Virus record (IMG/VR): IMGVR_UViG_3300036944_000513 | Span: 37,644-101,643 of that record | Direction: 5' to 3' (one strand) | DNA: 64,000 nt | Source of the DNA: a virus | Lineage: Duplodnaviria > Heunggongvirae > Uroviricota > Caudoviricetes | Notes under the pieces: model-generated | What the model was told of the DNA's origin: nothing | Database searches by the model: none | What the model saw: the letters and a program-made list of their open reading frames with translations, nothing else | Shown here: one piece after another, positions 1,601-15,549 of the stretch | Layout of the letters: each line of letters begins with the position of its first letter | How positions within the stretch are numbered: the stretch's first letter is position 1 | Program-made: the position numbers and the translations under genes

Positions 1601-1808
1601 AAAGGTTAAAAGATGTTAAAAATAGGGTGGCACTAAACCCGCCAAAAACGACCCCACCCCGAAATTTCAAAAATGCAGGAGGGTTGTCTTTTTGGCAACT
1701 ATTACCACAATAAAAACCCCACGACCTGTGGGGCTTCTACGTCTCTTTTTTACAACAAAATATATATTTTTTTCTGTTGTATTTTCACCACAGTTCTACG
1801 TTGTATTT

Positions 1809-2048
1809 TTACAACATAGCCTTGAGTTCAGCCTTAACGCGCCGCGCAGTCTCCCCACGGTACGTCCCAGCGTTACCCAGAAAATACGACACCACGGAGC
1901 GCCCAGAATCAAGGCCGTAGGCGTCACTGATGGACTCTAGCCCCATCATGGCATCAAGGTAGGGCTTGGCACTGTAGTGTACCTTAGCGCCCCAATCACG
2001 GCGAATCTCACGGGCAATCGTAGAAATGGTTCGGGAAATGGTTTGCAT
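1809..2048 (-). CDS. hypothetical protein (GC-rich)
   Basis: 79-aa ORF with ATG and an AGGAAC SD; local GC is clearly above the window average. Confidence 0.45.
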   Translation of the reverse strand: MQTISRTISTIAREIRRDWGAKVHYSAKPYLDAMMGLESISDAYGLDSGRSVVSYFLGNAGTYRGETARRVKAELKAML

Positions 2049-2087
2049 TTTATCGTTCCTAATATGGTTGTGAATATGGATTATCGT

Positions 2088-2396: not shown

Positions 2397-2475
2397 TTTG
2401 TAGTCCTTAGTGAGTAGAAGTCTAGTATAAGCGAAAAGCGATTCTTTGTGTAAATTATTTTGCAGTGTGTTGTAT

Positions 2476-2694
2476 TTACGCAACACACTCAGTGCGACGA
2501 TCAATATACCCTGCACCCTTACGAATCTCAGCAGCCCAGTCGCTGTTAAAAACAATGTCGCGGATTACAACCGAGTAGCCAGCAATTTTATGGTTGCAAT
2601 ATGCGTCAAATGCTTGATCGTAAGTATCAAATTCCATGATGCCGTTTTCAAGGGTTTCAACGCAGGCATAAGAGAGAAAGTAGTTGCAGATCAT
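2476..2694 (-). CDS. hypothetical protein
   Basis: 72-aa ORF with an ATG start downstream of a PeSL-variant cassette. Confidence 0.4.
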   Translation of the reverse strand: MICNYFLSYACVETLENGIMEFDTYDQAFDAYCNHKIAGYSVVIRDIVFNSDWAAEIRKGAGYIDRRTECVA

Positions 2695-2792
2695 TTTAGA
2701 GTTCCTTGTTGGTAGGACTCTAGTATATCAAAAAACAGCCCTTCTACGTAGAAATTTACAAATATATTTGCACTGTTGTTTCTACGTCACAC

Positions 2793-2996: not shown

Positions 2997-3348
2997 CTTT
3001 TGGTTCTACGTATGCAACAGGCTGATTCCACAGCAATTGCACAATGTTATCAGAATGTATACTATTTTGCGTACAGAAATCAATGGCAAGTTGTCTACGT
3101 ATAAACAAATGGGGAACAAAGTCACCCTGATGATTCCTAACAGTATAACCAGCAAATTTAATCATAGTATAAAACGTAGAAACCCATGGAATAATCCAGT
3201 GATAAAACCAGTGAATGCCACAAGTATAATTAGATCAGTGAATGACATAGTTACCATAAGTATAATATTAGAGTTTCTCATTATCGCCCACATGGCGATT
3301 ATTACATAGAGTCAATAGAATGTCAATAGAATCTTTGTAGTGTTGTAT

Positions 3349-3558
3349 TTACGCAACAGAGTCAATTTCGTATACTTCTTCGTCCTCGCAGCCAATCCAC
3401 GTAGAATTAATTGAAGGCCCACCAAAGCCGTGAACGTACTCAGTGGTGACATTGTATTCAGATTCGCCAGTACCAGCGAGTTCCATTGCTTCATGCTTAG
3501 AATCAGCTTCGACTTCGATTTCTACGACGAAATACTGACGAACAATATAAGTAGCCAT
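3349..3558 (-). CDS. hypothetical protein, MATY(I/Y)V...VEVEA(D/E)SK family
   Basis: In-frame ATG at 3558 (MATYIVRQYF...); paralogous to 9755..9946; preceded by a PeSL-variant leader. Confidence 0.5.
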   Translation of the reverse strand: MATYIVRQYFVVEIEVEADSKHEAMELAGTGESEYNVTTEYVHGFGGPSINSTWIGCEDEEVYEIDSVA

Positions 3559-3827
3559 TTTGATATCCTTTGTTGGTAGAATTACAGTATAACACAAAAG
3601 TCAATATTCAGCGTTGTTTTCGCGCAACATTTACGTAGAATAACCTGTCAAGCATTTCGTGGTATAAAAGAGACACATTGACGTAGAATCTTATATAAGT
3701 AATGGCTTATTCAATTGTTTAGTTAAATAGTTAAATAGTTTAATAAGCAAAGACTTATACTTCAAAAACGCCTTATTTATACTACTAAATTCTAGGCCCA
3801 TTTGCACAATTTACCACTTTCACCCAC

Positions 3828-4952: not shown

Positions 4953-5166
4953 TTAATACTGCACTATCGCCGCCTTCTACATCTTCCAAATTAGTATTGC
5001 GGACAATAGACGCGCATTGGGCAATGATTAACTCAGCGAATTTCTGAATTTGCTCTAATTGCGCTTGTTCTGTTTGAGTTAACGCATTAACCGTGCCATA
5101 GTGGTTCAGCGCGATGACTGACCCAAATTTGGCTTGTAGAGCAAGTTGTTTGATTTGCTGGTTCAT
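4912..5166 (-). CDS. MNxRIKELAEQAG / FAELIVKEC / FGVEE family small protein (paralog)
   Basis: In-frame ATG at 5166 directly after the PeSL leader ...CACTTCAAG-ATG; sequence MNQQIKQLALQAKFG...KFAELIIAQCA...SFFKV. Confidence 0.55.
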   Translation of the reverse strand: MNQQIKQLALQAKFGSVIALNHYGTVNALTQTEQAQLEQIQKFAELIIAQCASIVRNTNLEDVEGGDSAVLNAASDQIKSFFKV

Positions 5167-5257
5167 CTTGAAGTGTCTTTTCGTTGCGATAACTGATTGT
5201 AACCGATTTTCTGGGTGAAACACCAAAATATTTTTTAGTGTCTCTTTTTTACAACAG
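5167..5257 (-). promoter_or_regulatory. PeSL-like early promoter cassette
   Basis: Conserved TTGTTGCGATAACTGATTGTAACCGAT (plus strand; equals -10 TACAAT plus leader on the minus strand) and a TGTTGTAAAAAAGAGACAC box at the upstream stop codon. Confidence 0.6.
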
Positions 5258-5482
5258 TTATACTCCGAAAAACTCTTTGATTTTGTTTTGTACCTGAGTT
5301 GCTGCCGCATACGTCAATTCCGAATCTTCATCACGCAATACGTCCCTGACGCATTCAGTGGCGTGATTTATAATTAACTCAGCGAATTTATTACTGTCAA
5401 AGCCTGATGTAAGTAATTCACCGTTGATGCCGTGAATTTCAATCTGACATTGGTCAGCGAGTTCTTGGATTCTATTTTGCAT
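5258..5482 (-). CDS. MNxRIKELAEQAG / FAELIVKEC / FGVEE family small protein (paralog)
   Basis: MQNRIQELADQCQ...KFAELIINHATEC...EFFGV. Confidence 0.55.
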   Translation of the reverse strand: MQNRIQELADQCQIEIHGINGELLTSGFDSNKFAELIINHATECVRDVLRDEDSELTYAAATQVQNKIKEFFGV

Positions 5483-5483
5483 A

Positions 5484-5927
5484 TTAGTCCACGTAGAATT
5501 TAAATACTGCCAGAATGCGTGTGCCCGCTTTCATGCGTCCGGTATCAACTAATTGACCATTTTCGACTACCGTAGCATGACCGCGCACAATCACGATAAA
5601 CTTACCAAAAGGATTAGCTTCCATGAACGATTTGATGGTCATACTTTTGTCATGGAATACACCGCTGATTTTGCGATACTTTGCCCAAATCACAGTTTTT
5701 GCGCCGTAGAATTCGGTGCTGATTGCGCCGTTACGCTTATAGCATTCGATCACGTTTTCTATGGTCATACCGCGATTTTTGGTGCGGTATTTCATGGTAG
5801 CTTTGTGCGCTTCTGGGTACTCGATTTCCAGAGCATTTGCCAATGCACGAACTGTGCAGTCACGGGTTTCGCTGATGCCGTGAGAGGAAGGATTTTCACC
5901 GCGAGAGACTGGAGCAATGTAGGCCAT
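5484..5927 (-). CDS. hypothetical protein (GC-rich island)
   Basis: 147 aa; start directly after a PeSL cassette. Confidence 0.5.
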   Translation of the reverse strand: MAYIAPVSRGENPSSHGISETRDCTVRALANALEIEYPEAHKATMKYRTKNRGMTIENVIECYKRNGAISTEFYGAKTVIWAKYRKISGVFHDKSMTIKSFMEANPFGKFIVIVRGHATVVENGQLVDTGRMKAGTRILAVFKFYVD

Positions 5928-6019
5928 AATTCAGTACCGTTTTTTGTTGCGATAAGGTATTGTAACCGATTTTCGGGGTCTTTTTACAGTTTCCCCGAAA
6001 ATATTTCTAACCGTTGTTT
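5928..6019 (-). promoter_or_regulatory. PeSL-like early promoter cassette
   Basis: Box GTTGCTTAAAAACAAC overlaps the upstream stop codon; a 10-bp-stem hairpin ATTTTCGGGG/CCCCGAAAAT carries TGTAAAAA in its loop; -10 TACAAT; leader TTATCGCAACAAAAAAC. Confidence 0.65.
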
Positions 6020-6850
6020 TTAAGCAACTTCTGCAACTTCCACTTGCTTTTTGTACGATAAGCGAGTAATGATGGTCTGATTCACGCCATCATAGACATT
6101 GTGTTCTTTAACGCTGAATGAAGCGGTCTCAAATGCCTCATACGCGGGTTCGCCGTTAGTGGTGTACCAAGTCAACACATTGCCCTCTGCGGTCTCCAAT
6201 TTGACCACATAGCGCGTCAGAAAGGGGTAGAAATCAGTCTTACCAATTGCAAAGCAGGCGGTCACGCGAACCTGAGCATCTTTAACACGTTTGCCAATTT
6301 GACCAACGTGTTTGCTGTTGGCGCGTTGGGCTTCGATGCGCTCAGTGGCTGCAAAGCTGGACGCTACGGCGCTGGCGTGGCGGTCAGTCAATCGCCCCCA
6401 CAATGCCAAGCTGGCTTGCGAATCGAGCAAGAACTGATTGATGCCATTGTATGCGCGTAAACGCGCCACTAATGCCGCATTCCCATTGCGCCATTGCTCG
6501 GTGGCTTCCAAGCGAGTGTGCAGGCGCTCAAGGCGTTCTGCTGCCACTTTTGCAGCGCGTTGCTCACGGCGTACAACTGCACCAGCTTCGCGGCGGGATT
6601 TGATGTTGGCTTTGCGAACCGTATCAAAATCTTCAATCATTCCCGTTTTTTCTACGCAGTCGCAGCCAACATGAAAATGTGCGCCATCAGTGGATTTGAT
6701 TTGATACGCCCAGCGAATTCCAGTACCGCAATACTGACAAGCGCCACCGGCCTTAGATTCACCACCGGGCATAGTGAACACCATTTCTTCTACGCCAATG
6801 CACCGAAAAGGTGCTTTACCGAGACCAGCTTTTTCAAAGGGGTGTGTCAT
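6020..6850 (-). CDS. hypothetical Cys/His-rich (zinc-binding?) protein (GC-rich island)
   Basis: 276 aa with CQYCGTG...HFHVGCDC and an Arg/Ala-rich coiled middle; elevated GC. Confidence 0.5.
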   Translation of the reverse strand: MTHPFEKAGLGKAPFRCIGVEEMVFTMPGGESKAGGACQYCGTGIRWAYQIKSTDGAHFHVGCDCVEKTGMIEDFDTVRKANIKSRREAGAVVRREQRAAKVAAERLERLHTRLEATEQWRNGNAALVARLRAYNGINQFLLDSQASLALWGRLTDRHASAVASSFAATERIEAQRANSKHVGQIGKRVKDAQVRVTACFAIGKTDFYPFLTRYVVKLETAEGNVLTWYTTNGEPAYEAFETASFSVKEHNVYDGVNQTIITRLSYKKQVEVAEVA

Positions 6851-6924
6851 AATGTCAGTACCAATTTTGTTGCGATAAAGAATTGTAACCGATAAATCAG
6901 AGTAAAAGTGCAGTTGTAGTAAAT
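6851..6924 (-). promoter_or_regulatory. PeSL-like early promoter cassette
   Basis: AATTTTGTTGCGATAAAGAATTGTAACCGATAAATCAGAG...AAATTTACAACAA. Confidence 0.6.
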
Positions 6925-7227
6925 TTACAACAATTCTGCTGGAATATCAACTTCTTCGCCCAGCTTGGACGCTACGTAGCAGCGCATTGCTGCAATCAGG
7001 GGTGTGGGGCCGTCCTCTTGATACAGCGGTGTGTCAAGGTCTGTCGAGTCTTGCGTTGTAGCTGTCCAGCAGTCGTGCTTGGGGTGCGTCAGCACAATGA
7101 TCTCCCTTTCAATGATCGGGCCGCCGTGTGACCAATTGGTGGAGGGACTGAAATAGCCCCAAACATTCGCTTCGATCTTTGCCACCGCCCAGTCAAGGGC
7201 AATGTCTGTTAGTTCTGATGTTTTCAT
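6925..7227 (-). CDS. hypothetical protein (GC-rich island)
   Basis: 100-aa ORF. Confidence 0.5.
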   Translation of the reverse strand: MKTSELTDIALDWAVAKIEANVWGYFSPSTNWSHGGPIIEREIIVLTHPKHDCWTATTQDSTDLDTPLYQEDGPTPLIAAMRCYVASKLGEEVDIPAELL

Positions 7228-7328
7228 AATGTCAGTACCAATTTTGTTGCGATAACTGATTGTAAGCGATTTCCGAGACTTTTTTAACTTTTTTACAGAA
7301 ATATTTTTTCTGTTGTTTTTTTGCTACT
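7228..7328 (-). promoter_or_regulatory. PeSL-like early promoter cassette
   Basis: The same conserved core is present, with a G in place of C in the TTGTAACCGAT element (TTGTAAGCGAT). Confidence 0.6.
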
Positions 7329-7637
7329 TTAGAAATTGTAGTCGTAGAATCGGCGTGGAGCATCAGCAAGACCGAATTTGCGACCATTGGCGTCTTTCCA
7401 AGTACCAGCTTTATTCAAACGAATACGAACAACCGGATTATTTTCATTTTGGGAAATAACCCACTTTTGCTCATTCTGATTAGTACAATGACCAGCAAAG
7501 CCGCCAACAACCCAATTCAATTCTACGCTTGCGTCTTTTTCGGCGTCCATTTCACGCACTTCAACGCATTTGTCGCTGATCTTGCGAACTACTTCGTAAG
7601 GATAAACATCAGAGTAACCGTATTGATTTGCGTACAT
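7329..7637 (-). CDS. hypothetical protein
   Basis: 102-aa ORF; leader ...ACTTCAAA-ATG. Confidence 0.5.
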   Translation of the reverse strand: MYANQYGYSDVYPYEVVRKISDKCVEVREMDAEKDASVELNWVVGGFAGHCTNQNEQKWVISQNENNPVVRIRLNKAGTWKDANGRKFGLADAPRRFYDYNF

Positions 7638-7740
7638 TTTGAAGTCCAGTTTTGTTGCGATAACTGATTCTAGTTGATTTTCAACTCTTTTTTACAAAAA
7701 AATAAAAAATAATTTATTCTGTTGTATTTTTACAACAACC
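7638..7740 (-). promoter_or_regulatory. PeSL-like early promoter cassette
   Basis: TTGAAGTCCAGTTTTGTTGCGATAACTGATTCTAGTTGA...TGTTGTATTTTTACAACAA. Confidence 0.6.
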
Positions 7741-7850
7741 ATAAAAAAACACACTGTAAGAATTGCACCCCCCAAGTTCCTACGCTTGGTTACGTCTAGG
7801 GGTTACAGACCGATTCGGCAGTCCTGCAAGAAATGTGTTTTTGTATGTAA

Positions 7851-7883
7851 AGACCCCACGCCATGCAGGGTCTTTGTTTTTGT
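7851..7883. terminator. hairpin terminator (GC stem agaccc/gggtct plus T-run)
   Basis: agaccccacgccatgcagggtct followed by ttgtttttgtg, just downstream of the end of 7885..8151. Confidence 0.4.
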
Positions 7884-7884
7884 G

Positions 7885-8151
7885 TTATACAATCACTGCG
7901 AGTTGATTTTCCATTGCTACCGAAATGATAGCATCACGATCAATTGCGCGATAGCCTTTTTTGGTCATGTCGTAAACGATAACGAATTTGTCAGCGTCCA
8001 ATGTAGACTGACCACCACGCAAATCTTTTGTCACACCAGTGCGGCAATTCATTTTGCGAATGCTACCGTCTTTTTTAACGAAATTCACTGTGAGAAATTT
8101 GCCCTTAGAGTTAGCAATTGCGGATGCGAGAGAGCGGGATACTGCGTTCAT
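7885..8151 (-). CDS. hypothetical protein
   Basis: 88-aa ORF; PeSL leader upstream. Confidence 0.5.
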   Translation of the reverse strand: MNAVSRSLASAIANSKGKFLTVNFVKKDGSIRKMNCRTGVTKDLRGGQSTLDADKFVIVYDMTKKGYRAIDRDAIISVAMENQLAVIV

Positions 8152-8242
8152 TTTGAAGTCCTGTTTTGTTGTCGATAAGTAATTATAAGCGATTTCGGGG
8201 TCTTTTTACCGATTTCCCGAAAATAAATTTCTTTTGTTGTTT
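8152..8242 (-). promoter_or_regulatory. PeSL-like early promoter cassette
   Basis: TTGAAGTCCTGTTTTGTTGTCGATAAGTAATTATAAGCGAT...TTGTTGTTTTTAAGCAAC. Confidence 0.6.
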
Positions 8243-8440
8243 TTAAGCAACAGTCTCTTTGATAGTCACTTCTACGTCTTGTTTCAGTGCGCGAATCATG
8301 CAGTCCATTGCCACTCTGCCCGGAATTGCGTCGAGTTTACGATCAAATTGTCCGCTGTTAAGTTTGAGTTCGTCCACAATTCCAAATAAAATAGTCATTG
8401 CTTTGTGGGCTTCGATCAAGTCAAGTGAAGAAATTTTCAT
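8243..8440 (-). CDS. hypothetical protein
   Basis: In-frame ATG placed after the stop of the upstream gene; the longer track ORF overlaps 8451..8633. Confidence 0.3.
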   Translation of the reverse strand: MKISSLDLIEAHKAMTILFGIVDELKLNSGQFDRKLDAIPGRVAMDCMIRALKQDVEVTIKETVA

Positions 8441-8450
8441 TTTAGTCCAA

Positions 8451-8633
8451 TCAGCAAACTTGATGCAGTTTTTGGACTTCATCAAAATAAAAATCATACA
8501 GTTTAATGGCACTGCCCCAAACTGCCAGCTTCTTCGAATCATATTCGAATTGGTTGTTCCAAGTTTCCTCGTCATCCCACGTTGTGAGATCAACAACCTT
8601 GCCTTCGCGTAGATAGATGATGTAGTATTTCAT
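8451..8633 (-). CDS. hypothetical protein
   Basis: Canonical PeSL leader GGACTTCAAA-ATG at 8633; 60 aa. Confidence 0.5.
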   Translation of the reverse strand: MKYYIIYLREGKVVDLTTWDDEETWNNQFEYDSKKLAVWGSAIKLYDFYFDEVQKLHQVC

Positions 8634-8723
8634 TTTGAAGTCCTGTTTTGCCGTCGATAAGTAATTATAAGCGATTTTCAGGGAATTTTTAGAGTTCCCC
8701 GAAAATAAATTTAACTGTTGTTT
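8634..8723 (-). promoter_or_regulatory. PeSL-like early promoter cassette
   Basis: Conserved core plus hairpin CAGGGAA/TTCCCCG. Confidence 0.6.
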
Positions 8724-8987
8724 TTATGCAACTTCGTACATATAATTTTTAACGCTTGGGTCAAGTGCGATCAATTCTTTTACTGCGCCCATCAAAGCCT
8801 TATAATTCGCATTCACTTGGCTTGCAGACAATTCGCCGTCACAAGTGAGATTCTCAGGGCTCAAATCTGAATCAAGAGATTGTGCAATAGATTTGCGATC
8901 ATCCGCATTTTGAATACTAAGTTGCTTGGAACCAACCAATTTGGCAAATGCGTTCTTGCGGTCTACGTAGGCGGTGAGTTTAGACAT
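8724..8987 (-). CDS. hypothetical protein
   Basis: 87-aa ORF. Confidence 0.5.
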   Translation of the reverse strand: MSKLTAYVDRKNAFAKLVGSKQLSIQNADDRKSIAQSLDSDLSPENLTCDGELSASQVNANYKALMGAVKELIALDPSVKNYMYEVA

Positions 8988-9078
8988 TTTGCGAATCCGT
9001 TTTTTGTTGCGATAATGTATTCTAGTTGATTTTCAGGGAATTTTTACAGTTCCCCGAAAATAAATATTTCTGTTGTTT
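8988..9078 (-). promoter_or_regulatory. PeSL-like early promoter cassette
   Basis: Conserved core plus hairpin. Confidence 0.6.
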
Positions 9079-9486
9079 TTACGCCACAAGTTCGTATGGC
9101 TTGTCCCATTTGCCAATGTTTACGCCAACATACCAACCCACATCAAAGTAATCAGATTGAATGTCAGAACGATTATGATTGCCAACATTCATTGCTTGCA
9201 ATACTTCATTCAAAAACGCCACAGCTTCGCCATCAAACTGCTCATGATACCAGTAAGGATTAACGCCGATATATTTTATATCTTTATTATTGTGATAATT
9301 ATACTCAGGACGCTTTGATGTGACATTGACAAAGCTATTGATAAAGTCAATACTTCCAGCTTTGACATTCAATTGCAAGCTAGAATGATTGTCGATTGAC
9401 AACGTAGCCTTCACGCCGTACTTGGCGCAAATTGGCTTGATGACTGCTGCAATTTGCTTCTTTTTGATTTGGTCAATGTATGCCAT
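9079..9486 (-). CDS. hypothetical protein
   Basis: 135-aa ORF. Confidence 0.5.
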   Translation of the reverse strand: MAYIDQIKKKQIAAVIKPICAKYGVKATLSIDNHSSLQLNVKAGSIDFINSFVNVTSKRPEYNYHNNKDIKYIGVNPYWYHEQFDGEAVAFLNEVLQAMNVGNHNRSDIQSDYFDVGWYVGVNIGKWDKPYELVA

Positions 9487-9572
9487 TTTAAAGTTCCAGT
9501 TTTTGTTGCGATAAAGAATTATAACCGATAAATCAGAATAAAAACGCCATTGTGGCGAAAATACAACAAATC
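9487..9572 (-). promoter_or_regulatory. PeSL-like cassette with terminator hairpin followed by a TATAAT -10
   Basis: Minus-strand reading: GCCACAATGGC hairpin, then TTTTTATT, then GGTTATAAT, then leader TTATCGCAACAAAAACTGGAACTTTAAA-ATG. Confidence 0.6.
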
Positions 9573-9754
9573 TGTTTATGCGTCAAAAGTGTGGTAGCGT
9601 TTCTGTGTGTCATTGACCAAACGCTCATGTTCTGCTTTTTCCAATGATGATTTCAATTGTTTGAACAATTCCCGATTGAAGTAACTCATTTCTGCCAAAA
9701 AAGTATCCATTTCTTTTTTTGACAAGTTATTCAATTTGCGAATGATTTCTTCCA

Positions 9755-9946
9755 TTAGATTACATCCATATTAGAATTGACAACGATTGGGTCATCATAC
9801 TCATTGAGTTCCATTTGTGCGCCTGAATCACTATCATCAACGAAATCATATTCAATATCAAGAGCTTTATCAATTGCTTCTGCTTTTGATTCTGCTTCCA
9901 CTTCAACCCAAACCGTATAGGTGCGACCCACATAATATGTTGCCAT
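9755..9946 (-). CDS. hypothetical protein, MATY family paralog
   Basis: In-frame ATG (MATYYVGRTYTVWVEVEAESKAEA); paralog of 3349..3558. Confidence 0.45.
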   Translation of the reverse strand: MATYYVGRTYTVWVEVEAESKAEAIDKALDIEYDFVDDSDSGAQMELNEYDDPIVVNSNMDVI

Positions 9947-9965
9947 TTTTATATCTTTCAGTAAA

Positions 9966-10160
9966 TTAGCAAACTTCGCACATATCAATGGAAACTTCTT
10001 CCATGATATAACCTTTGGCAATGATTCTAGCGTCTGCTATGCTATCAGCGCAGCCAATCCAAGTAGTACCCCTAGCATCAGAATAAATCTCATACACCCA
10101 TGCAACATCATCATAGCTGCAATAGATTTGATAACCATCTAAATCAAGTAGTAAGAACAT
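9966..10160 (-). CDS. hypothetical protein
   Basis: 64 aa; PeSL leader upstream; shares a TWIGC motif with 3349..3558. Confidence 0.45.
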   Translation of the reverse strand: MFLLLDLDGYQIYCSYDDVAWVYEIYSDARGTTWIGCADSIADARIIAKGYIMEEVSIDMCEVC

Positions 10161-10234
10161 TTTGAAGTTCCAGTTTTTGTTGCGATAAGCTATTGTAACC
10201 GATAAATCAGGGTAAAAACGCTACTGTGGTAAAT
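10161..10234 (-). promoter_or_regulatory. PeSL-like early promoter cassette
   Basis: Conserved core. Confidence 0.6.
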
Positions 10235-10423
10235 TTACAACACCGTCAGAATTACTTCATCATTCAATTCAAATGGGCAATCCATTTCAGTTTGGAAAGC
10301 ATTGCCACCAGTTATAAAGATTGCTGTGGTATCGCCCGTCTTTTCAAAGTATTCACCAGAAAAGGGGTCAAAGAAAGTGTCACCCGTATTGAGTGTTTGG
10401 AATTGGGTCAGTGTATCGGTCAT
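10235..10423 (-). CDS. hypothetical protein
   Basis: In-frame ATG with an AGGGGG SD, placed after the stop of 10434..10688. Confidence 0.45.
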   Translation of the reverse strand: MTDTLTQFQTLNTGDTFFDPFSGEYFEKTGDTTAIFITGGNAFQTEMDCPFELNDEVILTVL

Positions 10424-10433
10424 GTGTTCCCCC

Positions 10434-10688
10434 TTAAATTTTGATGCCCGAATAGCTGAATACACGGCGCATTTCTGCGACTGTTTCGGCTTGCGCAATA
10501 CTTCCCAAAAGAGAATTCATATATCCGGTCATGTAGGCAAATTTATCTGATGGCTGACTTGTTGGGTGTGCTGCATCATACTCTTGCATTTTAGCTGCAA
10601 TGGCAGCGTTAACAATTTCACGGCGCTTTTGGGCGCGATCAATGGATTTGTTCAGTTTGTCATTGGTGGAGAATGCTGCTTTGGACAT
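10434..10688 (-). CDS. hypothetical protein
   Basis: 84-aa ORF after a PeSL cassette. Confidence 0.5.
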   Translation of the reverse strand: MSKAAFSTNDKLNKSIDRAQKRREIVNAAIAAKMQEYDAAHPTSQPSDKFAYMTGYMNSLLGSIAQAETVAEMRRVFSYSGIKI

Positions 10689-10792
10689 TTTAAACTTTCG
10701 TTTTTTGTTGCGATAACTGATTGTAACCGACTTCCAATGCTTTTTTCCAAAAAAACTAAAAATAACTTTCTTTGTTGTTTTTATGCAACAAG
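10689..10792 (-). promoter_or_regulatory. PeSL-like early promoter cassette
   Basis: Conserved core. Confidence 0.6.
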
Positions 10793-11134
10793 TTACGCAA
10801 AATTATAGTAAGCGAATTTTGTATTAACTACTTGCCCAATACCTTCAACGATTCGATTATAAACTTCCTTTTTGCTCATGTAATAAGCATAATCAGAATC
10901 AGATGGATTAAAATTCTGCCATTGATTATATCGTTGATTTTGGAGAATATCACGCACAAGTGAATGAGTATCGTAATAATCAATGAAACCATTAAGGTTA
11001 TAGTGAGCAATAAACCCACTTGCCAAATTGATAAATTTGTAACCCGTAGAATTCAGTTTTGTAATATCCTGCACAGCCTTGAGGACATTTGACACAATAA
11101 GGTCTTGCTGGCGCTGAGAGAGAGGTTCAATCAT
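10793..11134 (-). CDS. hypothetical protein
   Basis: 113-aa ORF. Confidence 0.5.
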   Translation of the reverse strand: MIEPLSQRQQDLIVSNVLKAVQDITKLNSTGYKFINLASGFIAHYNLNGFIDYYDTHSLVRDILQNQRYNQWQNFNPSDSDYAYYMSKKEVYNRIVEGIGQVVNTKFAYYNFA

Positions 11135-11219
11135 GATAAAGATTCCGTTTTGTTGTCGATAAAGTATTGTAACCGACTCTCAGCACTTTTTGTAAAAAAT
11201 CTTCTACGCTGTTGTTTTT
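11135..11219 (-). promoter_or_regulatory. PeSL-like early promoter cassette
   Basis: Conserved core (TTGTTGTCGATAAAGTATTGTAACCGAC). Confidence 0.6.
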
Positions 11220-11495
11220 TTACAACTGCACAGCAGCGTAATAATCGGCCAATGCTGCGTCCATACCAATGCCTTCTTCCCCTTCCCATACCCACACGAT
11301 ATCGGCGTCAGGTTCGGCGTTTAAACACTGTTCTTCGGCGTGATCTACATCTTCCGCCCAGCACTGAAACCCAAATGGAGAATCAGTTGCACACATAATG
11401 GATTCAATACGAAAGAGTACGATATAATTTTGCATTTGATTTTCCTGTTGCAGTTGATCTTGTTTGAATTGACGTTTTGAATTAAATCCGGTCAT
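11220..11495 (-). CDS. hypothetical acidic protein
   Basis: 91-aa ORF. Confidence 0.45.
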   Translation of the reverse strand: MTGFNSKRQFKQDQLQQENQMQNYIVLFRIESIMCATDSPFGFQCWAEDVDHAEEQCLNAEPDADIVWVWEGEEGIGMDAALADYYAAVQL

Positions 11496-11645
11496 TTACT
11501 TTTTTCCAATCTACTCATTGCAGTTTGTAATTGCTGCTCATACTTTTCAAGGTTTTCACCTAGTTGCAATATTGCACTCTGAGTTTCTTCGATGCACATT
11601 TTCCAATGTGCAATCTCTGCGTTTAGAATATCTGCGTCCATTATA

Positions 11646-12086
11646 TCACCAAGACGCCTGATACTCAAAATCGAATCCTTTGAGCAATGGATTATTAATT
11701 AGCGCAGTCAATTCATTTTTGGTGCGCTCCAATTCTTCAAAATAATAATCATCATACTCAGTTGAACCAAAAAAGAATCCTGAGCCAGTTGGTAGAATTT
11801 CTTCTGCTTTGCCTCGGTTTTCCAATACAGTTGCAATATCATTAATCAATTGCTCAATATTTTCTTGACTAACATTATATGGCGCACAATTATCTTCACC
11901 ATCTTGAACATTTTCCACAAACCAATTATGGATTGCGTTTGCCTTGCGCCAGTACATAGCGCGGACACTAATTTCTTTTACATCAAGTCCACCAAAAATT
12001 TCGCATACTGCTACGCGCTTTTCTGCGACTGCATCATCATATTCAGACAAATATTTCTTTGCGGTCAAGTACATATCCAAACCCAT
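11646..12086 (-). CDS. hypothetical protein
   Basis: 146-aa ORF. Confidence 0.5.
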   Translation of the reverse strand: MGLDMYLTAKKYLSEYDDAVAEKRVAVCEIFGGLDVKEISVRAMYWRKANAIHNWFVENVQDGEDNCAPYNVSQENIEQLINDIATVLENRGKAEEILPTGSGFFFGSTEYDDYYFEELERTKNELTALINNPLLKGFDFEYQASW

Positions 12087-12110
12087 AATATTCTCCTAGT
12101 TAAAATAAAA

Positions 12111-12377
12111 TTATACTGCTTTGTAGCTGTTATAGCTACGAATTTTGCTGCTTTTGTTGCTAGATTTCTCAACAAATTTTACACCAATGTTTCGCGTAGT
12201 CAACTCACGCGCCAACAATCCCAAATCACAATCTTCTTCCAAGTATACATGATTTTTGCGCTCATAACTGTAACGGCTGATTTTATTTGCAATGCCAAGA
12301 AAATCAATCACGCTGCGTTCAACTTTGCCCCATGCGTGGGCTGGGTCTTGGTATACTGTGATGGTCAAATTTTTCAT
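12111..12377 (-). CDS. hypothetical protein
   Basis: 88 aa; PeSL leader ACTTAAAA-ATG. Confidence 0.5.
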   Translation of the reverse strand: MKNLTITVYQDPAHAWGKVERSVIDFLGIANKISRYSYERKNHVYLEEDCDLGLLARELTTRNIGVKFVEKSSNKSSKIRSYNSYKAV

Positions 12378-12445
12378 TTTTAAGTCCAGTTTTTGTTGCG
12401 ATAACGTATTGTAACCGACTTCCGAAACTTTTTGTAGAAAATCTT
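12378..12445 (-). promoter_or_regulatory. PeSL-like early promoter cassette
   Basis: Conserved core. Confidence 0.6.
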
Positions 12446-12787
12446 TTAATCGTTGTTTTTACGCAACGCCACACGCTCTTTGAGTTCTTCGAGTTCAATT
12501 TCCAGCGCAGCATTTAGCATTTCGACAAATATTTTCAATTCCGTTTTTTTCATACATGCAACAACAACTTCCCCCATCATATCGGTGACTTTAATAGCAA
12601 CGCCATAATTTTCTTTTGTCCATGACGCTTCGATAATGCCATCACCCTCGGAATCTGTGATATAAACCCTTCGCTGAGTATTATCAGAATAATCTTCATC
12701 AATTTCATCTGTCATATCACAATATGATGTAAATCCCATTTCATCAGTAATAATCAATGGTGAAATCATTTCAATTAATTTTCTCAT
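12446..12787 (-). CDS. hypothetical protein
   Basis: 113 aa; ATGA overlap with the upstream family gene. Confidence 0.5.
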   Translation of the reverse strand: MRKLIEMISPLIITDEMGFTSYCDMTDEIDEDYSDNTQRRVYITDSEGDGIIEASWTKENYGVAIKVTDMMGEVVVACMKKTELKIFVEMLNAALEIELEELKERVALRKNND

Positions 12788-12993
12788 TCTTCAACTCCAA
12801 AATGTTCTAAAATACCACGGGGGCCGTCATATGCAAGTGTGGCGCATTCTTTAACAATCAATTCGGCAAACTTTTGATCATAAACATGAAGGAAAGTATA
12901 ATCTATTTCTCCGCCATCATCAAAAAAACTACCAAATTTTTCTTCGGTGTCATCCCACGCCTGTTCAGCAAGTTCTTTAATTCGTTCGTTCAT
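12784..12993 (-). CDS. MNERIKELAEQAG / FAELIVKEC / HFGVEE family small protein (paralog)
   Basis: MNERIKELAEQAWDD...KFAELIVKECATLAY...EHFGVEE. Confidence 0.6.
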   Translation of the reverse strand: MNERIKELAEQAWDDTEEKFGSFFDDGGEIDYTFLHVYDQKFAELIVKECATLAYDGPRGILEHFGVEE

Positions 12994-13002
12994 GCGCTTC
13001 CC

Positions 13003-13233
13003 CTAGTTTTTAACGGTGCGGCGCACAGTACAAAGACGATCATGCACAGTCTTTTCCACTTTTGCATCATTGACCATCATAAACCCGATAAACCCCGCCA
13101 AATAGCCAAGAGTCATTTCTGCAATATCATGATTGCTGGTCTCTGGACTACGATTCTTTTCGCGTTCTTTGAGGGTTTTAATCAACTCGGATGCCATTTG
13201 CAGACATTTATCGTCGTGGGACATTGTGGTCAT
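13003..13233 (-). CDS. hypothetical protein
   Basis: 76-aa ORF. Confidence 0.4.
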   Translation of the reverse strand: MTTMSHDDKCLQMASELIKTLKEREKNRSPETSNHDIAEMTLGYLAGFIGFMMVNDAKVEKTVHDRLCTVRRTVKN

Positions 13234-13234
13234 A

Positions 13235-13417
13235 TTAAGTATTCCATTCAGTTACTAGGGATTCTTTGAAGTCATCAAACAACTCATGGTTTTCCATTGC
13301 ATTGATGAGCATTGTACCATTTCCGATACTCATGTGTTCCATGATATACTCGGCATATTGGTCATCGAGTTCATATCGGTCATACATATCTTCAAATTGA
13401 TCTTCTGTCATGGTCAT
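13235..13417 (-). CDS. hypothetical acidic protein
   Basis: 60-aa ORF. Confidence 0.4.
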   Translation of the reverse strand: MTMTEDQFEDMYDRYELDDQYAEYIMEHMSIGNGTMLINAMENHELFDDFKESLVTEWNT

Positions 13418-13488
13418 CCTTTGTTGCTATGAAAGTATTGTAACCGATTTTTAGACTTTGTGCGCGTTTGTTGCGAATTTACAACAAC
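13418..13488 (-). promoter_or_regulatory. PeSL-like early promoter cassette (degenerate)
   Basis: GAAAGTATTGTAACCGATTTTTAG...GAATTTACAACAA. Confidence 0.5.
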
Positions 13489-14310: not shown

Positions 14311-14571
14311 TTAATGTTGATTCAGTTGAATTTGATGTTGTGACCAAGTTCCTGCAATTCCGACTGTGCATTGATCTGCAATCCCCGCGCCGCCCTTGCT
14401 GTTTTCAAGCGCAGCCAATGCTTGCTGAATGCCAAGATTAACACTTGTAAAATCACCTACGCCATCACGAATTGCTTTTGCAGTAGTGTAAAAAGACACA
14501 CCATTGATAACTACCCGAAATTTTTGTGTTTGCTTAAATTTCATAACAGTCCTTCGTTGTTGATGTGTCAA
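14311..14571 (-). CDS. hypothetical protein
   Basis: 86-aa ORF. Confidence 0.4.
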   Translation of the reverse strand: MTHQQRRTVMKFKQTQKFRVVINGVSFYTTAKAIRDGVGDFTSVNLGIQQALAALENSKGGAGIADQCTVGIAGTWSQHQIQLNQH

Positions 14572-14622
14572 GTATACACGACTTTTTACTAAAAAACTGG
14601 CTTGTGGTAAAAATACAACAAA

Positions 14623-15549
14623 TTATGCACCAGCAGTCAAGACGTATTTTGCCAAGTTTTTCCAGTCGCCACCATCATCTTCTGCGCGAATTTTTACAGT
14701 AGAAATCAGTGAGCGCAAAGAAAGATTGTCAATTTTATCAGCAACTGATGTAATAAAATCTAGTGCGTCCATCTTGCATTCTAGCGAATACTCGGGCATA
14801 AAATCATCATCCAGCAAAATAGATTCCATGCGCTCAATTTTTTGTGCATCCGTCATGCCCACATCAACGCACATTGCCCGACTGCGAACAGCTTGGTCAA
14901 TTTGCTCGGGCATCATGTTACTGATAAAAATAACCGACCCAGTAAACAAAAAACTACGTGGCAAATCTTCATCTTTCATGTCGGCATTCCATGAAATGTA
15001 ACGCTCACCATAAGAGTCAAGCGCACCCTTCAATAGATTGAGTGCCTTAGAATCTTCCAATACGCTATCGCAGTCATCAAAGATCAAAGTCATTCCATTG
15101 CCCTCAAAAAGAGTGCGATACAATCCTTTTGCAGAACTATAACCCTTAATGAAACGATAACTATTTGAACTTTGAAGTTTGGTTCCTTCTTCAAATTTTG
15201 ATAGATCGCTAACATCTACCATGTTTTGTTTCTTTAACGCTTTGGTAACAGTATGCGTCTTGCCAAGTCCACCCTGACCAGTAATGATTGCTGATGCAAT
15301 AGTTTTCTTTGAAACCATTGTAACCATTTTGGAAACGAACTCGAATCGTTGCGTAATTGAAAACTCTGAGTTTACTTTTTCAGGGGCAACTTTTGTTTGC
15401 ATTTGATCGGCTGGAATGCTTGCACCCAGAGACAATACTTTGCTTTCTACGTGCTGGCGTGATGCCGACCACGATACAATTTTGCCATTAATAAAACCAT
15501 CGTAACGACCTTTTGCGTCATTATAAACTACTGTGCCATTCAATTGCAT
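14623..15549 (-). CDS. P-loop NTPase (AAA-type ATPase) with an N-terminal extra domain
   Basis: Walker A GQGGLGKTH and Walker B LIFDDCD; 308 aa. Confidence 0.6.
   Translation of the reverse strand: MQLNGTVVYNDAKGRYDGFINGKIVSWSASRQHVESKVLSLGASIPADQMQTKVAPEKVNSEFSITQRFEFVSKMVTMVSKKTIASAIITGQGGLGKTHTVTKALKKQNMVDVSDLSKFEEGTKLQSSNSYRFIKGYSSAKGLYRTLFEGNGMTLIFDDCDSVLEDSKALNLLKGALDSYGERYISWNADMKDEDLPRSFLFTGSVIFISNMMPEQIDQAVRSRAMCVDVGMTDAQKIERMESILLDDDFMPEYSLECKMDALDFITSVADKIDNLSLRSLISTVKIRAEDDGGDWKNLAKYVLTAGA

What the first reader, a model, noticed from the sequence alone, without database searches (positions are those of the whole stretch)
5167..13488. Fourteen or more copies of a composite intergenic cassette resembling the PeSL elements of T4-type phages
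Almost every intergenic gap between 5.1 and 13.5 kb carries the same ~70-100 bp cassette. Read on the coding (minus) strand, the order is:
- the stop codon of the upstream gene, embedded in an inverted-repeat box GTTG(C)nTAAAAA(T)ACAAC;
- often a GC hairpin (for example ATTTTCGGGG...CCCCGAAAAT) whose loop holds TGTAAAAA;
- a conserved core (C/T)TGATTTATCGGTTA(C/T)AAT containing a TAYAAT -10;
- the leader TTATCGCAACAAAAACTGGAACTTCAAA, ending at the ATG.
Variant cassettes (CCTTGTTGGTAG...GTTGTATTTACGCAACA) sit at 2397-2475, 2695-2792, 3310-3348 and 3559-3630. This matches the concept of promoter-early stem-loop (PeSL) cassettes proposed to drive modular shuffling of novel ORFs in hyperplastic regions of T4-type genomes. 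The number, regularity and attached inverted-repeat box here are unusually clear. The inverted-repeat box always sits on the preceding stop codon, which suggests the recombination junctions lie inside it.
Basis: partly seen in the sequence, partly recalled or inferred. Interest (0 to 1): 0.65.

Follow-up and report, generated by a model that had tools for sequence, protein, structure and literature searches.

The report
Repeated promoter cassettes that shuffle genes
An uncultivated T4-type phage carries 14 copies of a roughly 100-base intergenic linker holding a promoter and a translation leader, and sister phages from other metagenomes have whole genes added, lost or moved at these linkers, so this is a clear new example of a gene-shuffling mechanism already proposed for T4-type phages.

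Summary
Fourteen homologous 80-100 nt cassettes lie on the minus strand between 5167 and 13488. None occurs elsewhere in the 64 kb window, and the counts are far above chance. Each cassette has four parts:
- a 16-bp palindromic box (GTTG-N8-CAAC) at or next to the upstream stop codon;
- an A/T-rich tract, with a GC hairpin in 4-5 copies;
- a -10-dominated promoter-like core (AATCGGTTAYAAT) with no conserved -35;
- a conserved leader (TTATCGCAACAAAA..GGA..ATG).

The window is a distant T4-type phage: gp43, UvsX, gp41-like helicase, gp62 and RegA are present.

Relatives at about 62% protein identity carry textbook PeSLs (hairpin, TTGACA, N17, TGnTATAAT, SD) with a homologous leader. Close relatives (78-92% nt) from at least four other metagenome assemblies carry the same cassette family. 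They differ from the window mainly by whole-module insertions, deletions, replacements and one translocation. Hybrid cassettes sit at several junctions.

The PeSL reading is therefore supported, and the shuffling claim is supported from sequence alone. Three points need correcting. The stop codon lies inside the box in only 7 of 14 cassettes. The hairpin is not general. The cassettes lack the consensus -35 and a convincing terminator. Promoter activity and the role of the box remain untested. This is a new variant of a known kind, of moderate interest.

The parts
13412..13488 (-). Cassette c01 (short form; leader CATAGCAACAAAGGA, closest to the leader of the distant relatives' PeSLs)
   Evidence: (E 5e-9)
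12378..12467 (-). Cassette c02 (medium form; the upstream ORF reads through the box)
11135..11226 (-). Cassette c03 (medium form; stop codon inside the box)
10689..10789 (-). Cassette c04 (long form; A/T-rich middle, no GC hairpin)
10161..10241 (-). Cassette c05 (short form B). Left end of the 3-ORF module that sits elsewhere in L133
9487..9567 (-). Cassette c06 (short form B). The only copy with a terminator-like hairpin plus T run (CGCCA-CAA-TGGCG TTTTTATT)
8988..9087 (-). Cassette c07 (long form with GC hairpin; -10 TAGAAT)
   Evidence: z -2.1
8634..8732 (-). Cassette c08 (long form with GC hairpin). Apart from its box, it is absent from L133 together with the following 60-aa ORF
   Evidence: z -2.6
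8152..8251 (-). Cassette c09 (long form with GC hairpin)
7638..7739 (-). Cassette c10 (long form; follows an RNA-like element rather than an ORF)
7228..7327 (-). Cassette c11 (long form; box variant GTAGCAAAAAAACAAC)
6851..6931 (-). Cassette c12 (short form B; its leader is identical to that of c11)
5928..6028 (-). Cassette c13 (long form; best GC hairpin, TTTTCGGGG..CCCCGAAAA)
   Evidence: z -2.6
5167..5255 (-). Cassette c14 (medium form; different hairpin GAGACAC..GGTGTTTC)
14545..14619 (-). Variant cassette: box GTTGTATTTTTACCAC, TATACT -10 and leader CATCAACAACGAAGGA. In the close relatives a 179-181 aa ORF is inserted here
3559..3628 (-). Variant cassette: box, TGtTATACT and leader CTACCAACAAAGGA
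3294..3357 (-). Variant cassette: box (holding the stop codon) and TTGACA-17-AATAAT, only 4 nt before the ATG
2695..2792 (-). Variant cassette: half box, TTCTACGTAGAA palindrome, TGaTATACT and leader CCTACCAACAAGGA
2397..2484 (-). Variant cassette: box (holding the stop codon), TATACT and leader with AAGGA
1800..1815 (-). Isolated box on the stop codon of the last ORF of the block. A hairpin+T-run terminator follows near 1715-1745 and there is no promoter
14623..15549 (-). 308-aa conserved ORF, used as the anchor to find relatives

Best explanation
The 14 repeats are this phage lineage's own version of PeSL cassettes. These are self-contained intergenic expression linkers that also serve as portable homology for recombination.

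Each cassette closes one small ORF module at a stop-proximal palindromic box. It then restarts expression of the next module from a -10-dominated, sigma-70-type promoter (AATCGGTTAYAAT, preceded by an A/T-rich tract). The transcript would begin in TTATCG and carry a conserved unstructured A/C-rich leader with a weak GGA Shine-Dalgarno about 8 nt before the ATG.

The cassettes are direct repeats, 65-100% alike in segments, spaced 350-1300 bp apart in one orientation. The phage's UvsX-type recombination system can therefore pair any two of them. Pairing would delete the ORFs between them, possibly as a circle, or insert or replace modules without disturbing their neighbours' expression.

Shown here: the repeat family, its anatomy, its T4-type host genome, its descent from canonical PeSLs of related phages, the mosaic make-up of the copies, and module-level rearrangements with hybrid cassettes among natural variants.

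Inferred: promoter activity, the start site, early timing, translation properties and the recombination enzyme.
For: The repeat family is real:
- Family and statistics.
- Information is concentrated at -17..-7 and -3..+12.

The genome is T4-type: gp43 at 49% identity to cyanomyovirus gp43; UvsX, a DnaB-type helicase and RNA ligase; RegA and gp62.

Distant relatives show descent from canonical PeSLs:
- Relatives at 62% identity in the anchor protein, on 190-222 kb contigs, carry 7-10 canonical PeSLs per 20 kb. The layout is stop, ACCC..GGGT hairpin with T run, GCTTGACA, N17, TGnTATAAT, then cATAGTAACAAAGGAG and ATG.
- Their leader matches that of c01 (CATAGCAACAAAGGA).
- The homologue of the cassette-flanked 87-aa ORF sits behind such a PeSL in those relatives.

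Close relatives carry the same cassette family and differ by modules:
- L133 has a single c05/c06 hybrid cassette where the window has three ORFs. Those three ORFs sit at the c13 site instead.
- L133 has a single c10/c12 hybrid where the window has 102 aa, c11, 100 aa and c12.
- c08 and its 60-aa ORF are absent from L133, with the left breakpoint at the box edge.
- A 179-aa ORF with its own TCGGTTATAAT and leader is inserted at the 14.6 kb box.
- L146 has the 135-aa ORF in place of the 100-aa ORF, between two three-way mosaic cassettes.
- L144 has two unrelated ORFs in that slot.
- L139 and L142 differ again upstream of c02.

Other support:
- Nine of 14 breakpoints against L133 fall in the 13% of the DNA that is cassette (P about 1e-5 under a uniform null).
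- Within the window the copies are mosaics. c08 has the middle of c07 but the -10 and leader of c09. c12 has the middle of c05/c06 but the leader of c11.
- Orthologous cassettes are 84-93% identical between the window and L133, at least as conserved as the flanking ORFs. Hairpin changes keep the pairing.
Against: - There is no conserved -35. A generic sigma-70 scan calls only 2 of the 14 cassettes, while the same genome uses GCTTGACA-N17-TAnAAT promoters from 15.8 to 60 kb. The cassettes may therefore be weak or factor-dependent rather than 'strong early' promoters.
- The stem-loop that gives PeSLs their name is convincing in only 5 of 14 cassettes (z <= -2). Only c06 looks like an intrinsic terminator.
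- Against a null in which breakpoints may fall at any gene junction, the cassette enrichment is not significant (P = 0.13). Five of the 14 breakpoints lie inside translationally coupled operons.
- All relatives are metagenome assemblies. One junction of the L133 translocation crosses a 100-N scaffold gap, and no junction is confirmed by a second contig.
- No transcript, protein or recombination data exist.
Confidence: 0.75

Rival explanations
1. The cassettes are a separately regulated promoter class that does not use the -35 element, comparable in logic to the MotA-dependent 'PmSL' elements of phage nt-1. A phage or host factor bound at the palindromic box (or at the TGTAAAAAG element near -33) would recruit or release RNA polymerase. 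The 5-13.5 kb block would then be a distinct temporal regulon. This is compatible with the shuffling role and differs only in how transcription is driven.
For: - The -35 region carries little information, whereas TTGACA promoters are used elsewhere in the same genome and in the relatives.
- The box and the -35-less promoters occur together in this lineage only.
- The box-to--10 distance falls into classes 43-44, 54-55 and 63-64 nt in 17 of 18 sites, about one helical turn apart (Rayleigh p about 0.01 on 8 architectures).
- The box is nearly invariant between orthologous cassettes.
- The three promoter types occupy separate blocks.
Against: - There is no Mot box (TGCTT at -30).
- No AsiA or MotA family appeared in the 25 (of 27) matched families listed for the 115 small ORFs of the window, though most of the genome is outside the window.
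- The 10-nt steps are equally explained by loss of one or both ~10-nt hairpin arms.
- The box also accompanies a canonical TTGACA-17 promoter (3294-3357) and stands alone at 1800-1815, so it is not tied to -35-less promoters.
- G at -14 and the A/T-rich upstream tract could be enough for unaided initiation.
Confidence: 0.2
2. The conserved parts act on RNA rather than DNA. Either the box 5' half (UUGUUGC) pairs with the leader (GCAACAA) on read-through transcripts, or the conserved leader is an operator for the phage's RegA-type translational repressor. Either way translation of every module would be controlled together.
For: - Box-leader pairing appears in the minimum-energy folds of c02, c04, c06, c07 and c13.
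- A strong RegA homologue is encoded at 50284-50712.
- The leader is conserved far beyond what a Shine-Dalgarno needs. It is also shared with unrelated phages.
Against: - The pairing is 5-8 bp, does not cover the ribosome-binding site, and has no covariation support.
- Most whole-cassette folds are no better than shuffles.
- No Rfam family matches.
- RegA target rules could not be tested.
Confidence: 0.1
3. The apparent shuffling is an artefact of metagenome assembly across repeats. Assemblers would have joined the wrong flanks at similar cassettes, or mixed co-occurring strains.
For: - Contigs often end in cassettes (L001, L134, L136).
- L133 has a scaffold gap inside a cassette.
- No junction is seen in two assemblies.
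Against: - The longest exact stretch shared by any two cassettes is 31 nt and the median is 14 nt. That is far below the final k of the assemblies named k141.
- Four of the variant modules (179 aa, 88 aa, 125 aa, 72 aa) have no homologue anywhere in the window, so they cannot come from mis-joining window-like DNA.
- Five assemblies from different samples give consistent local maps: L133 = L134 = L136 over their shared part, and L139 and L142 share the 88-aa ORF.
Confidence: 0.08
4. The cassettes are only a terminator or RNA-processing family, or a selfish mobile repeat (MITE-like), and have no promoter function.
For: - Hairpins are present in some copies, and c06 is terminator-like.
- The element has an inverted repeat at one end.
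Against: - The most conserved parts are a TAYAAT hexamer with G at -14 and the sequence from there to the ATG, always in the gene's orientation and at a fixed distance from the ATG.
- Most copies lack a stable hairpin or a U run.
- There is no second terminal repeat or target duplication.
- The homologous cassettes of relatives hold perfect TTGACA-17-TGnTATAAT promoters.
Confidence: 0.04

Closest known systems
PeSL (promoter-early stem-loop) cassettes of coliphages RB49/phi1 (Arbiol et al. 2010, PMC2839356)
   Same: - The host genome is T4-type.
- The repeated composite motif runs from the upstream stop codon through an A/T-rich tract, promoter and SD to the ATG.
- The GGGG..CCCC stem-loop can overlap the -35/spacer.
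- Copies are clustered in a region of small ORFs of unknown function.
- Indels and replacements between close relatives end in the cassettes.
   Different: - The -35 here is degenerate (at best TTGTAA/TTTACA-like at 19 bp) rather than a near-perfect TTGACA-N17-TATAAT.
- The stem-loop is present in only about a third of the copies.
- There is an extra 16-bp palindromic box at the stop codon.
- The leader is much more conserved and the SD is weak.
- Terminator and promoter strength and mini-circles were measured for RB49/phi1 but not here.
PeSL and PmSL elements of Vibrio phages nt-1/KVP40 and of PST/T4 (Comeau et al. 2014, PMC4122927)
   Same: - Consensus sequences are lineage-specific, with relaxed -35 boxes (TTGYVH, TTTACW) and TAYWAT/TAWWAT -10 boxes.
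- Stem-loops are of the A3-4G3..C3T3-4 type, like TTTTCGGGG..CCCCGAAAA read on the other strand.
- Cassettes occur in uninterrupted runs with one cassette per gap.
- 'Half' or degraded cassettes lie next to indels.
- A second promoter class is built into similar cassettes (PmSL).
   Different: - There is no Mot box.
- In those phages the stem-loop lies upstream of the promoter and is general.
- No stop-codon box is described there.
Canonical PeSL-like cassettes of the window's own distant relatives (IMG/VR contigs 3300032334_001433, 3300027747_002221, 3300023174_000050; found here)
   Same: - They belong to the same phage clade (62-63% identity in the 308-aa anchor protein) and sit in the same genomic neighbourhood.
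- The leader is homologous (cATAGTAACAAAGGAG against c01 CATAGCAACAAAGGA).
- They have the same role in front of small ORFs, including the 87-aa ORF shared with the window.
   Different: - They have a true hairpin with T run directly after the stop codon, GCTTGACA at -35, an extended -10 (TGnTATAAT) and a strong SD.
- They have no palindromic box. The window's family has lost or replaced all four of these features.
T4 early promoters as a class (extended conservation from the A/T-rich upstream region to the start site). This comparison rests on my own knowledge of the T4 literature and was not checked here.
   Same: There are many tandem same-strand promoters in front of small early genes. Conservation extends beyond the two hexamers, and the upstream tract is A/T-rich.
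   Different: T4 early promoters keep a recognisable -35 (GTTTAC) at 17 bp.

Membership tests
PeSL cassettes of T4-type phages | Resident in a T4-type myovirus genome | tested here: met
   gp43-type PolB at 49% identity to cyanomyovirus gp43. T4_UVSX_C, DnaB_C and RNA ligase domains. RegA, gp62 clamp-loader subunit and endonuclease VII.
PeSL cassettes of T4-type phages | [quoted passage not shown] | tested here: met
   14 copies, 62% mean column identity, each ending at an ATG. The stop codon is within 12 nt of the 5' edge in 13 of 14.
PeSL cassettes of T4-type phages | Sigma-70-like -10 box | tested here: met
   TACAAT, TATAAT or TAGAAT in 14 of 14 at a fixed distance from the leader. TAYAAT-N3-TTATCG occurs 11 times against 0.03 expected.
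PeSL cassettes of T4-type phages | Sigma-70-like -35 box about 17 bp upstream (near-consensus in RB49/phi1, relaxed in T4/PST and nt-1/KVP40) | tested here: not met
   Information content around -35 is low. A consensus scan accepts only c04 and c11, at 9 of 12 matches. The best candidates (TTGTAA, TTTACA, TTGGAA) lie 19 bp from the -10.
PeSL cassettes of T4-type phages | A/T-rich tract upstream of the promoter that contains the upstream stop codon | tested here: met
   Read directly from alignment A1.
PeSL cassettes of T4-type phages | Stable stem-loop in or next to the promoter, often GGGG..CCCC | tested here: inconclusive
   Present in c07, c08, c09 and c13 (GGGG..CCCC type), in c14 and c10 (other stems), and in c06 (small GC hairpin). 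Five cassettes fold at z <= -2 and the rest are no better than shuffles.
PeSL cassettes of T4-type phages | The stem-loop terminates or attenuates upstream transcription | not testable with these tools
   A pattern scan finds a hairpin with T run in c06 only. This needs reporter or transcript data.
PeSL cassettes of T4-type phages | Shine-Dalgarno sequence and start codon at the 3' end | tested here: met
   There is a GGA/GGT core 7-9 nt before the ATG in most copies. It is weaker than the AAGGAG of the relatives.
PeSL cassettes of T4-type phages | Concentrated in a hyperplastic region of small, mostly unknown ORFs | tested here: met
   All 14 lie in 8.3 kb among ORFs of 46-276 aa. There are few family matches and no cassettes in the other 50 kb.
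PeSL cassettes of T4-type phages | Insertions, deletions and replacements between close relatives end in the cassettes and leave hybrid cassettes | tested here: met
   Comparison of the window with L133, L139, L142, L144 and L146. Nine of 14 breakpoints are at cassettes. The data are metagenome assemblies only.
PeSL cassettes of T4-type phages | Excision of cassette-flanked ORFs as mini-circles | not testable with these tools
   This needs inverse PCR or outward-facing read pairs from infected cells or virions.
MotA-dependent middle promoters / PmSL | Mot box (TGCTT) centred near -30, and AsiA/MotA encoded by the phage | tested here: not met
   No TGCTT lies 11-13 bp upstream of the -10. No AsiA or MotA Pfam family appeared in the 25 (of 27) matched families listed for 115 small ORFs of the window. 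The rest of the genome was not seen.
Intrinsic (rho-independent) terminator family | GC-rich hairpin immediately followed by a U run | tested here: not met
   Only c06 qualifies. The GC hairpins are followed by CGGTTACAAT or similar.
Known RNA families (Rfam 15) | Match to a curated covariance model | tested here: not met
   Only two tRNAs are found in the window, and nothing is found in 5000-13600 at E <= 1 apart from one chance-level hit.

The most novel reading that the evidence does not exclude
The 16-bp palindromic box would be the binding site of an unidentified phage factor with two roles. First, it would drive or gate the -35-independent promoters from helically phased positions near -48, -58 and -68. 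That would give this MotA-less T4-type lineage a middle-mode regulon of its own. Second, it would mark the module boundary at which recombination preferentially resolves. The cassettes would then be a regulated, factor-assisted gene-shuffling system rather than passive homology.
Probability: 0.12. Interest if true: 0.75.

Novelty: new variant of a known kind. Interest (0 to 1): 0.45.

Why it matters
PeSL-mediated shuffling has been documented in only three pairs of cultured phages and has had little follow-up since 2014.

This lineage is uncultivated and distant from those phages. It shows the same logic with unusually regular cassettes. Natural variants from several metagenomes show deletion, insertion, replacement and translocation of ORF modules, with hybrid cassettes left behind. 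That supports the generality of the mechanism across T4-type phages, and it shows the mechanism can be studied in metagenomes without culture.

Comparison with sister clades that keep textbook PeSLs shows that a whole cassette family can be remodelled in one lineage: the -35 and terminator are lost, and a palindromic box and a fixed leader are gained. This gives a defined pair of architectures for testing what each part does.

Practically, such repeats break short-read assemblies of these phages. They also mark where new phage genes are likely to be found.

Tried and rejected
- Near-identical DNA in deposited phage genomes: none.
- Exact cassette patterns in IMG/VR: none for the strict pattern, and only single chance-level matches for the loose one. 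The exception is a separate lineage (L021, L031, L056, L057) with two tandem cassettes sharing the core.
- The same pattern in bacterial genomes: three chance-level hits and no host clue.
- The metagenome pattern scan gave no multi-copy relatives. It did turn up L087 and L091, where the promoter-leader sits upstream of an HNH gene. These loci share no proteins with the window.
- Relatives at 50-63% identity in the anchor protein do not carry this cassette family.
- Known RNA families: none.
- Mot-box/AsiA/MotA reading: no support.
- Enrichment of breakpoints at cassettes relative to other gene junctions: not significant with L133 alone (P = 0.13).
- Independent contigs confirming the L133 junctions: none, because other contigs end in the cassettes.
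- Covariation support for the box-leader pairing or for the GC hairpin: not found. Hairpin differences between subfamilies shorten the stem rather than compensate.
- The helical-phasing idea for the box rests on few independent architectures and has a trivial alternative, loss of hairpin arms.

Full report
CONTEXT. The window comes from a T4-type phage that has no close deposited relative. A megablast of 5000-13600 against 50,697 phage records finds nothing. The 841-aa family-B polymerase (41406-43931, minus strand) is at most 49.6% identical to gp43 of cyanomyoviruses, with 2445 records covering at least 80% of it. Other T4 core functions are present: UvsX with the T4-specific C-terminal domain, a DnaB/gp41-type helicase and RNA ligase; RegA (50284-50712), the gp62 clamp-loader subunit and endonuclease VII. 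Almost all genes are on the minus strand. A Logan contig (SRR11805301_71001) is 100% identical to 7226-11462 and ends in cassettes at both ends.

OBSERVATION. Read on the minus strand, 14 intergenic gaps between 13488 and 5167 hold the same element, and each ends at the ATG of the next ORF.
- MAFFT aligns them in 123 columns with 62% mean column identity.
- An nhmmer profile of that alignment finds these 14 and nothing else in the 64 kb. E values run from 2e-21 to 5e-9 and the next hit has E 0.6.
- TAYAAT-N3-TTATCG occurs 11 times against 0.03 expected.
- GTTG-N8-CAAC occurs 13 times against 0.83 expected.

ANATOMY, WITH CORRECTIONS. The cassette has four parts.

(a) A 16-bp palindromic box, consensus GTTG(Y)NTAAAAACAAC, forms the sharp 5' limit of homology. 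The upstream stop codon lies inside it in 7 cassettes, and those ORFs end in ..VA* or ..L*. The stop lies 0-10 nt upstream in 5 cassettes and 3 nt downstream in c02. At c10 it is 146 nt away, because c10 follows an RNA-like element.

(b) A variable middle defines three length classes. The long class is c04, c07-c11 and c13. The medium class is c02, c03 and c14. The short class is c01 and the 'B' type c05, c06 and c12.
- The TTTTCGGGG..CCCCGAAAA hairpin is present only in c07, c08, c09 and c13. It overlaps the -35/spacer region.
- c14 and c10 have other stems, and c06 has a small GC hairpin with a T run.
- Five whole cassettes fold better than shuffles (z -2.0 to -2.6). The other nine do not.
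- The terminator scan accepts c06 only.

(c) The promoter-like core. Information is high at -17..-7 (AATCGGTTAYAAT, with G at -14) and low around -35. The generic sigma-70 scan accepts just c04 and c11.

(d) The leader. TTATCGCAACAAAA is nearly invariant, followed by a GGA/GGT core 7-9 nt before the ATG. No Rfam family matches.

GENOMIC SETTING. The window uses three promoter regimes in separate blocks.
- From 15.8 to 60 kb the intergenic promoters are canonical, (at)GCTTGACA-N17-TAnAAT. One at 15.8 kb follows a perfect hairpin with T run.
- The 5.1-13.5 kb block uses only the cassette family.
- The 1.5-3.9 kb block, and the gap at 14.6 kb, use TATACT-type or TTGACA promoters. These are combined with the same box and, in the 1.5-3.9 kb block, with a TTCTACGTAGAA palindrome.

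DISTANT RELATIVES. The conserved 308-aa ORF at 14623-15549 retrieved 34 IMG/VR loci at 50-63% identity, several from 168-222 kb contigs. None carries the window's cassette family or the box.
- The closest loci carry 7-10 copies per 20 kb of a textbook PeSL. Its layout is stop codon, ACCC..GGGT hairpin with T run, GCTTGACA, N17, TGnTATAAT, then a leader such as cATAGTAACAAAGGAG and the ATG.
- That leader is clearly homologous to the leader of c01 (CATAGCAACAAAGGA) and more loosely to TTATCGCAACAAAA.
- The homologue of the window's cassette-flanked 87-aa ORF (8724-8987) lies directly behind such a PeSL, immediately after the anchor gene.
The window's cassettes are therefore a remodelled descendant of canonical PeSLs in the same clade.

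CLOSE RELATIVES: THE TEST OF SHUFFLING. The anchor protein has a 96%-identity cluster. Its members lie on contigs from several independent assemblies.

L133 (ENA ERZ28594285, scaffold_493) aligns to window 20876-3721 at 77-91% identity and holds 10 cassettes of the family. The differences are module-sized:
1. A 179-aa ORF is inserted between the anchor gene's stop codon and the 14.6 kb box. It has its own TCGGTTATAAT and leader. The box after it equals the box of c05.
2. The three ORFs between c05 and c06 are missing, and one c05/c06 hybrid cassette remains.
3. Those three ORFs lie instead at the c13 site. The 3' crossover is just after the box. The 5' junction crosses a 100-N scaffold gap.
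4. c08, apart from its box, is absent together with its 60-aa ORF.
5. The 102-aa ORF, c11, the 100-aa NinX-like ORF and c12 are absent, and one c10/c12 hybrid remains.
6. The 69-aa and 113-aa ORFs are replaced by an unrelated 88-aa ORF that ends at the c02 box.
7. and 8. Two single-ORF indels (98 aa, 74 aa) lie inside translationally coupled operons and are not cassette-linked on their left side.

Other variants add to this picture.
- L139 and L142 show further variants upstream of c02.
- L146 has the order 102 aa, cassette, 135 aa, cassette, 276 aa. The first cassette combines the c11 box, the c07 middle and the 3' part of the c06 leader. The second combines the c07 box and middle with the c12 leader.
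- L144 fills the same slot with a TATACT-type cassette and two ORFs (125 and 72 aa).
- The 179-, 88-, 125- and 72-aa ORFs have no homologue in the window.

Statistics. Nine of 14 breakpoint sites against L133 lie in cassettes, which make up 12.7% of the region. P is about 1e-5 if breakpoints fell anywhere. P is only 0.13 if they are restricted to gene junctions. The weight of evidence therefore rests on the hybrid cassettes, not on the count.

Assembly chimeras are unlikely. No two cassettes share more than 31 exact bases and the median is 14. However, no junction is confirmed by a second contig.

MOSAICISM WITHIN THE WINDOW. Nearest neighbours differ by segment.
- c08 has the middle of c07 (0.89) but the -10 and leader of c09 (1.00, 0.91).
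- c12 has the middle and -10 of the B type but a leader identical to that of c11.
- c07 shares its -10 region with c10.
- c04 combines the middle of c10, the -10 of c14/c11 and the leader of c05/c06.
This is the pattern expected from repeated exchange or gene conversion among the copies. Orthologous cassettes of the window and L133 are 84-93% identical, with the box almost unchanged. Hairpin substitutions preserve or improve pairing.

THE CASSETTE OUTSIDE THE LINEAGE. A metagenome scan for TAYAAT-N3-TTATCGCAACAAAA found nine contigs.
- In L087 and L091 the similarity extends about 45 nt upstream of the selected pattern, including CTGTAAAAA at the same distance. The cassette there precedes a 120-aa HNH/EndoVII-like gene next to terminase genes of unrelated phages.
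- A further IMG/VR lineage has two tandem cassettes with the same TATAAT-N3-TTATCG core and a strong SD.
- None of these loci shares proteins with the window.
Either promoter-plus-leader modules move between phages, or phages of one host group converge on this start region.

MECHANISM. What is shown: a repeated, oriented, sharply bounded linker; its descent from canonical PeSLs; its mosaic copies; and module-level rearrangements with hybrid linkers among natural variants. What is inferred:
- Each linker is a sigma-70-type promoter that relies on its -10 element, the G at -14 and the A/T-rich upstream tract.
- Transcripts start in TTATCG.
- The A/C-rich unstructured leader with a weak SD loads ribosomes.
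- The phage's own recombination system (UvsX is encoded at 39638-40729) uses the linkers as homology.
Both the transcription and translation signals are weaker by sequence than those of the sister clade's PeSLs.

THE BOX. Its role is unresolved.
- It occupies the place of the sister clade's terminator hairpin, yet it can form only 4-6 A/U-rich base pairs.
- It usually stays with the upstream ORF when modules move.
- Its distance to the -10 falls into classes about 10 bp apart. That would fit a DNA-bound factor on one face of the helix. It is equally explained by loss of one or both hairpin arms.
- Its 5' half is complementary to the leader, without covariation.

COMPARISON AND VERDICT. By the published definitions (PMC2839356 section 14; PMC4122927, figures 3-6 and text) the cassettes meet most PeSL criteria. 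These are the T4-type host, the composite stop-to-ATG motif, the A/T-rich tract, the -10, the SD and ATG, clustering among small unknown ORFs, and association with indels. They fail the -35 criterion, and the stem-loop is present only in a minority. Terminator action and mini-circles cannot be tested here. I file this as a new variant of a known kind. It works like a PeSL array, in a new and distant lineage, with a remodelled architecture. Interest is moderate. The mechanism was proposed in 2010. The population-level evidence from metagenomes, the contrast with sister-clade PeSLs and the unexplained box are useful additions.

Noticed in passing
window 7740-7885 (minus strand); L133 12190-12330: A structured RNA-like element of about 110 nt lies between the terminator hairpin of the 88-aa ORF and cassette c10. 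Its MFE is -47.6 kcal/mol (z -2.96). It is conserved in L133 with two apparently compensatory stem changes (CCAAG..CUUGG to CCGAG..CUCGG; ACACA..UGUGU to AUACA..UGUAU). It is not a tRNA and has no Rfam match.
   Followed up: partly
window 1300-3925 (19 of 28 copies), e.g. 2742-2753 and 1558-1587: TTCTACGT occurs 28 times against 0.94 expected, in both orientations. It often forms the 12-bp palindrome TTCTACGTAGAA, once in the -35 area of a TATACT promoter. Three 11-bp tandem units lie at 1558-1587. This could be an operator or iteron.
   Followed up: partly
window 4912-5166, 5258-5482, 12784-12993, 22652-22879, 23937-24197, 24561-24836, 25000-25239, 28568-28786, 28783-28995, 31475-31699, 31696-31899 (minus strand): At least 11 paralogues of a 60-85 aa protein (MNERIKELAEQ..KFAELI..C..HFGVEE*) are present. 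They are often translationally coupled to the next gene through GAAGAATGA. Copy number differs between the window, L133, L139 and L142. No Pfam match was found.
   Followed up: partly
L087 4567-4643 and L091 3281-3358: The cassette's promoter and leader (about 75 nt, including CTGTAAAAA at the same spacing) precede 120-aa HNH/EndoVII-like genes. These lie beside terminase genes in contigs that share no proteins with the window. The genes may be free-standing homing endonucleases carrying the same expression cassette.
   Followed up: partly
L021, L031, L056, L057 (IMG/VR), e.g. L031 306-330 and 710-735: Another phage lineage has two tandem intergenic cassettes (AAAAATAGGCGAAAATTGGTGTCTGTGTTATAATACATTATCG..CAAAAAGGAG..ATG). 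They share the TATAAT-N3-TTATCG start region.
   Followed up: no
window 3294-3357 (minus strand): A TTGACA-17-AATAAT promoter with TG lies only 4 nt before the ATG of a 43-aa ORF. This may give a leaderless mRNA.
   Followed up: no
window 50284-50712 (minus strand): A strong RegA (T4 translational repressor) homologue is encoded here (Pfam Translat_reg, 4.8e-47), next to a gp62-like gene. The invariant cassette leader is a candidate shared target, which was not tested. No AsiA or MotA family appeared in the 25 (of 27) matched families listed for the window's 115 small ORFs. A Tad3 (anti-Thoeris) family match exists among them but was not located.
   Followed up: partly
window 15.8-60 kb (minus strand), e.g. 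15812, 16139, 17031, 23446, 60360: Canonical (at)GCTTGACA-N17-TAnAAT promoters, the same type as in the sister clade's PeSLs, are used throughout the rest of the window. They are absent from the intergenic gaps of 5.1-13.5 kb, so the promoter types are partitioned into blocks.
   Followed up: partly
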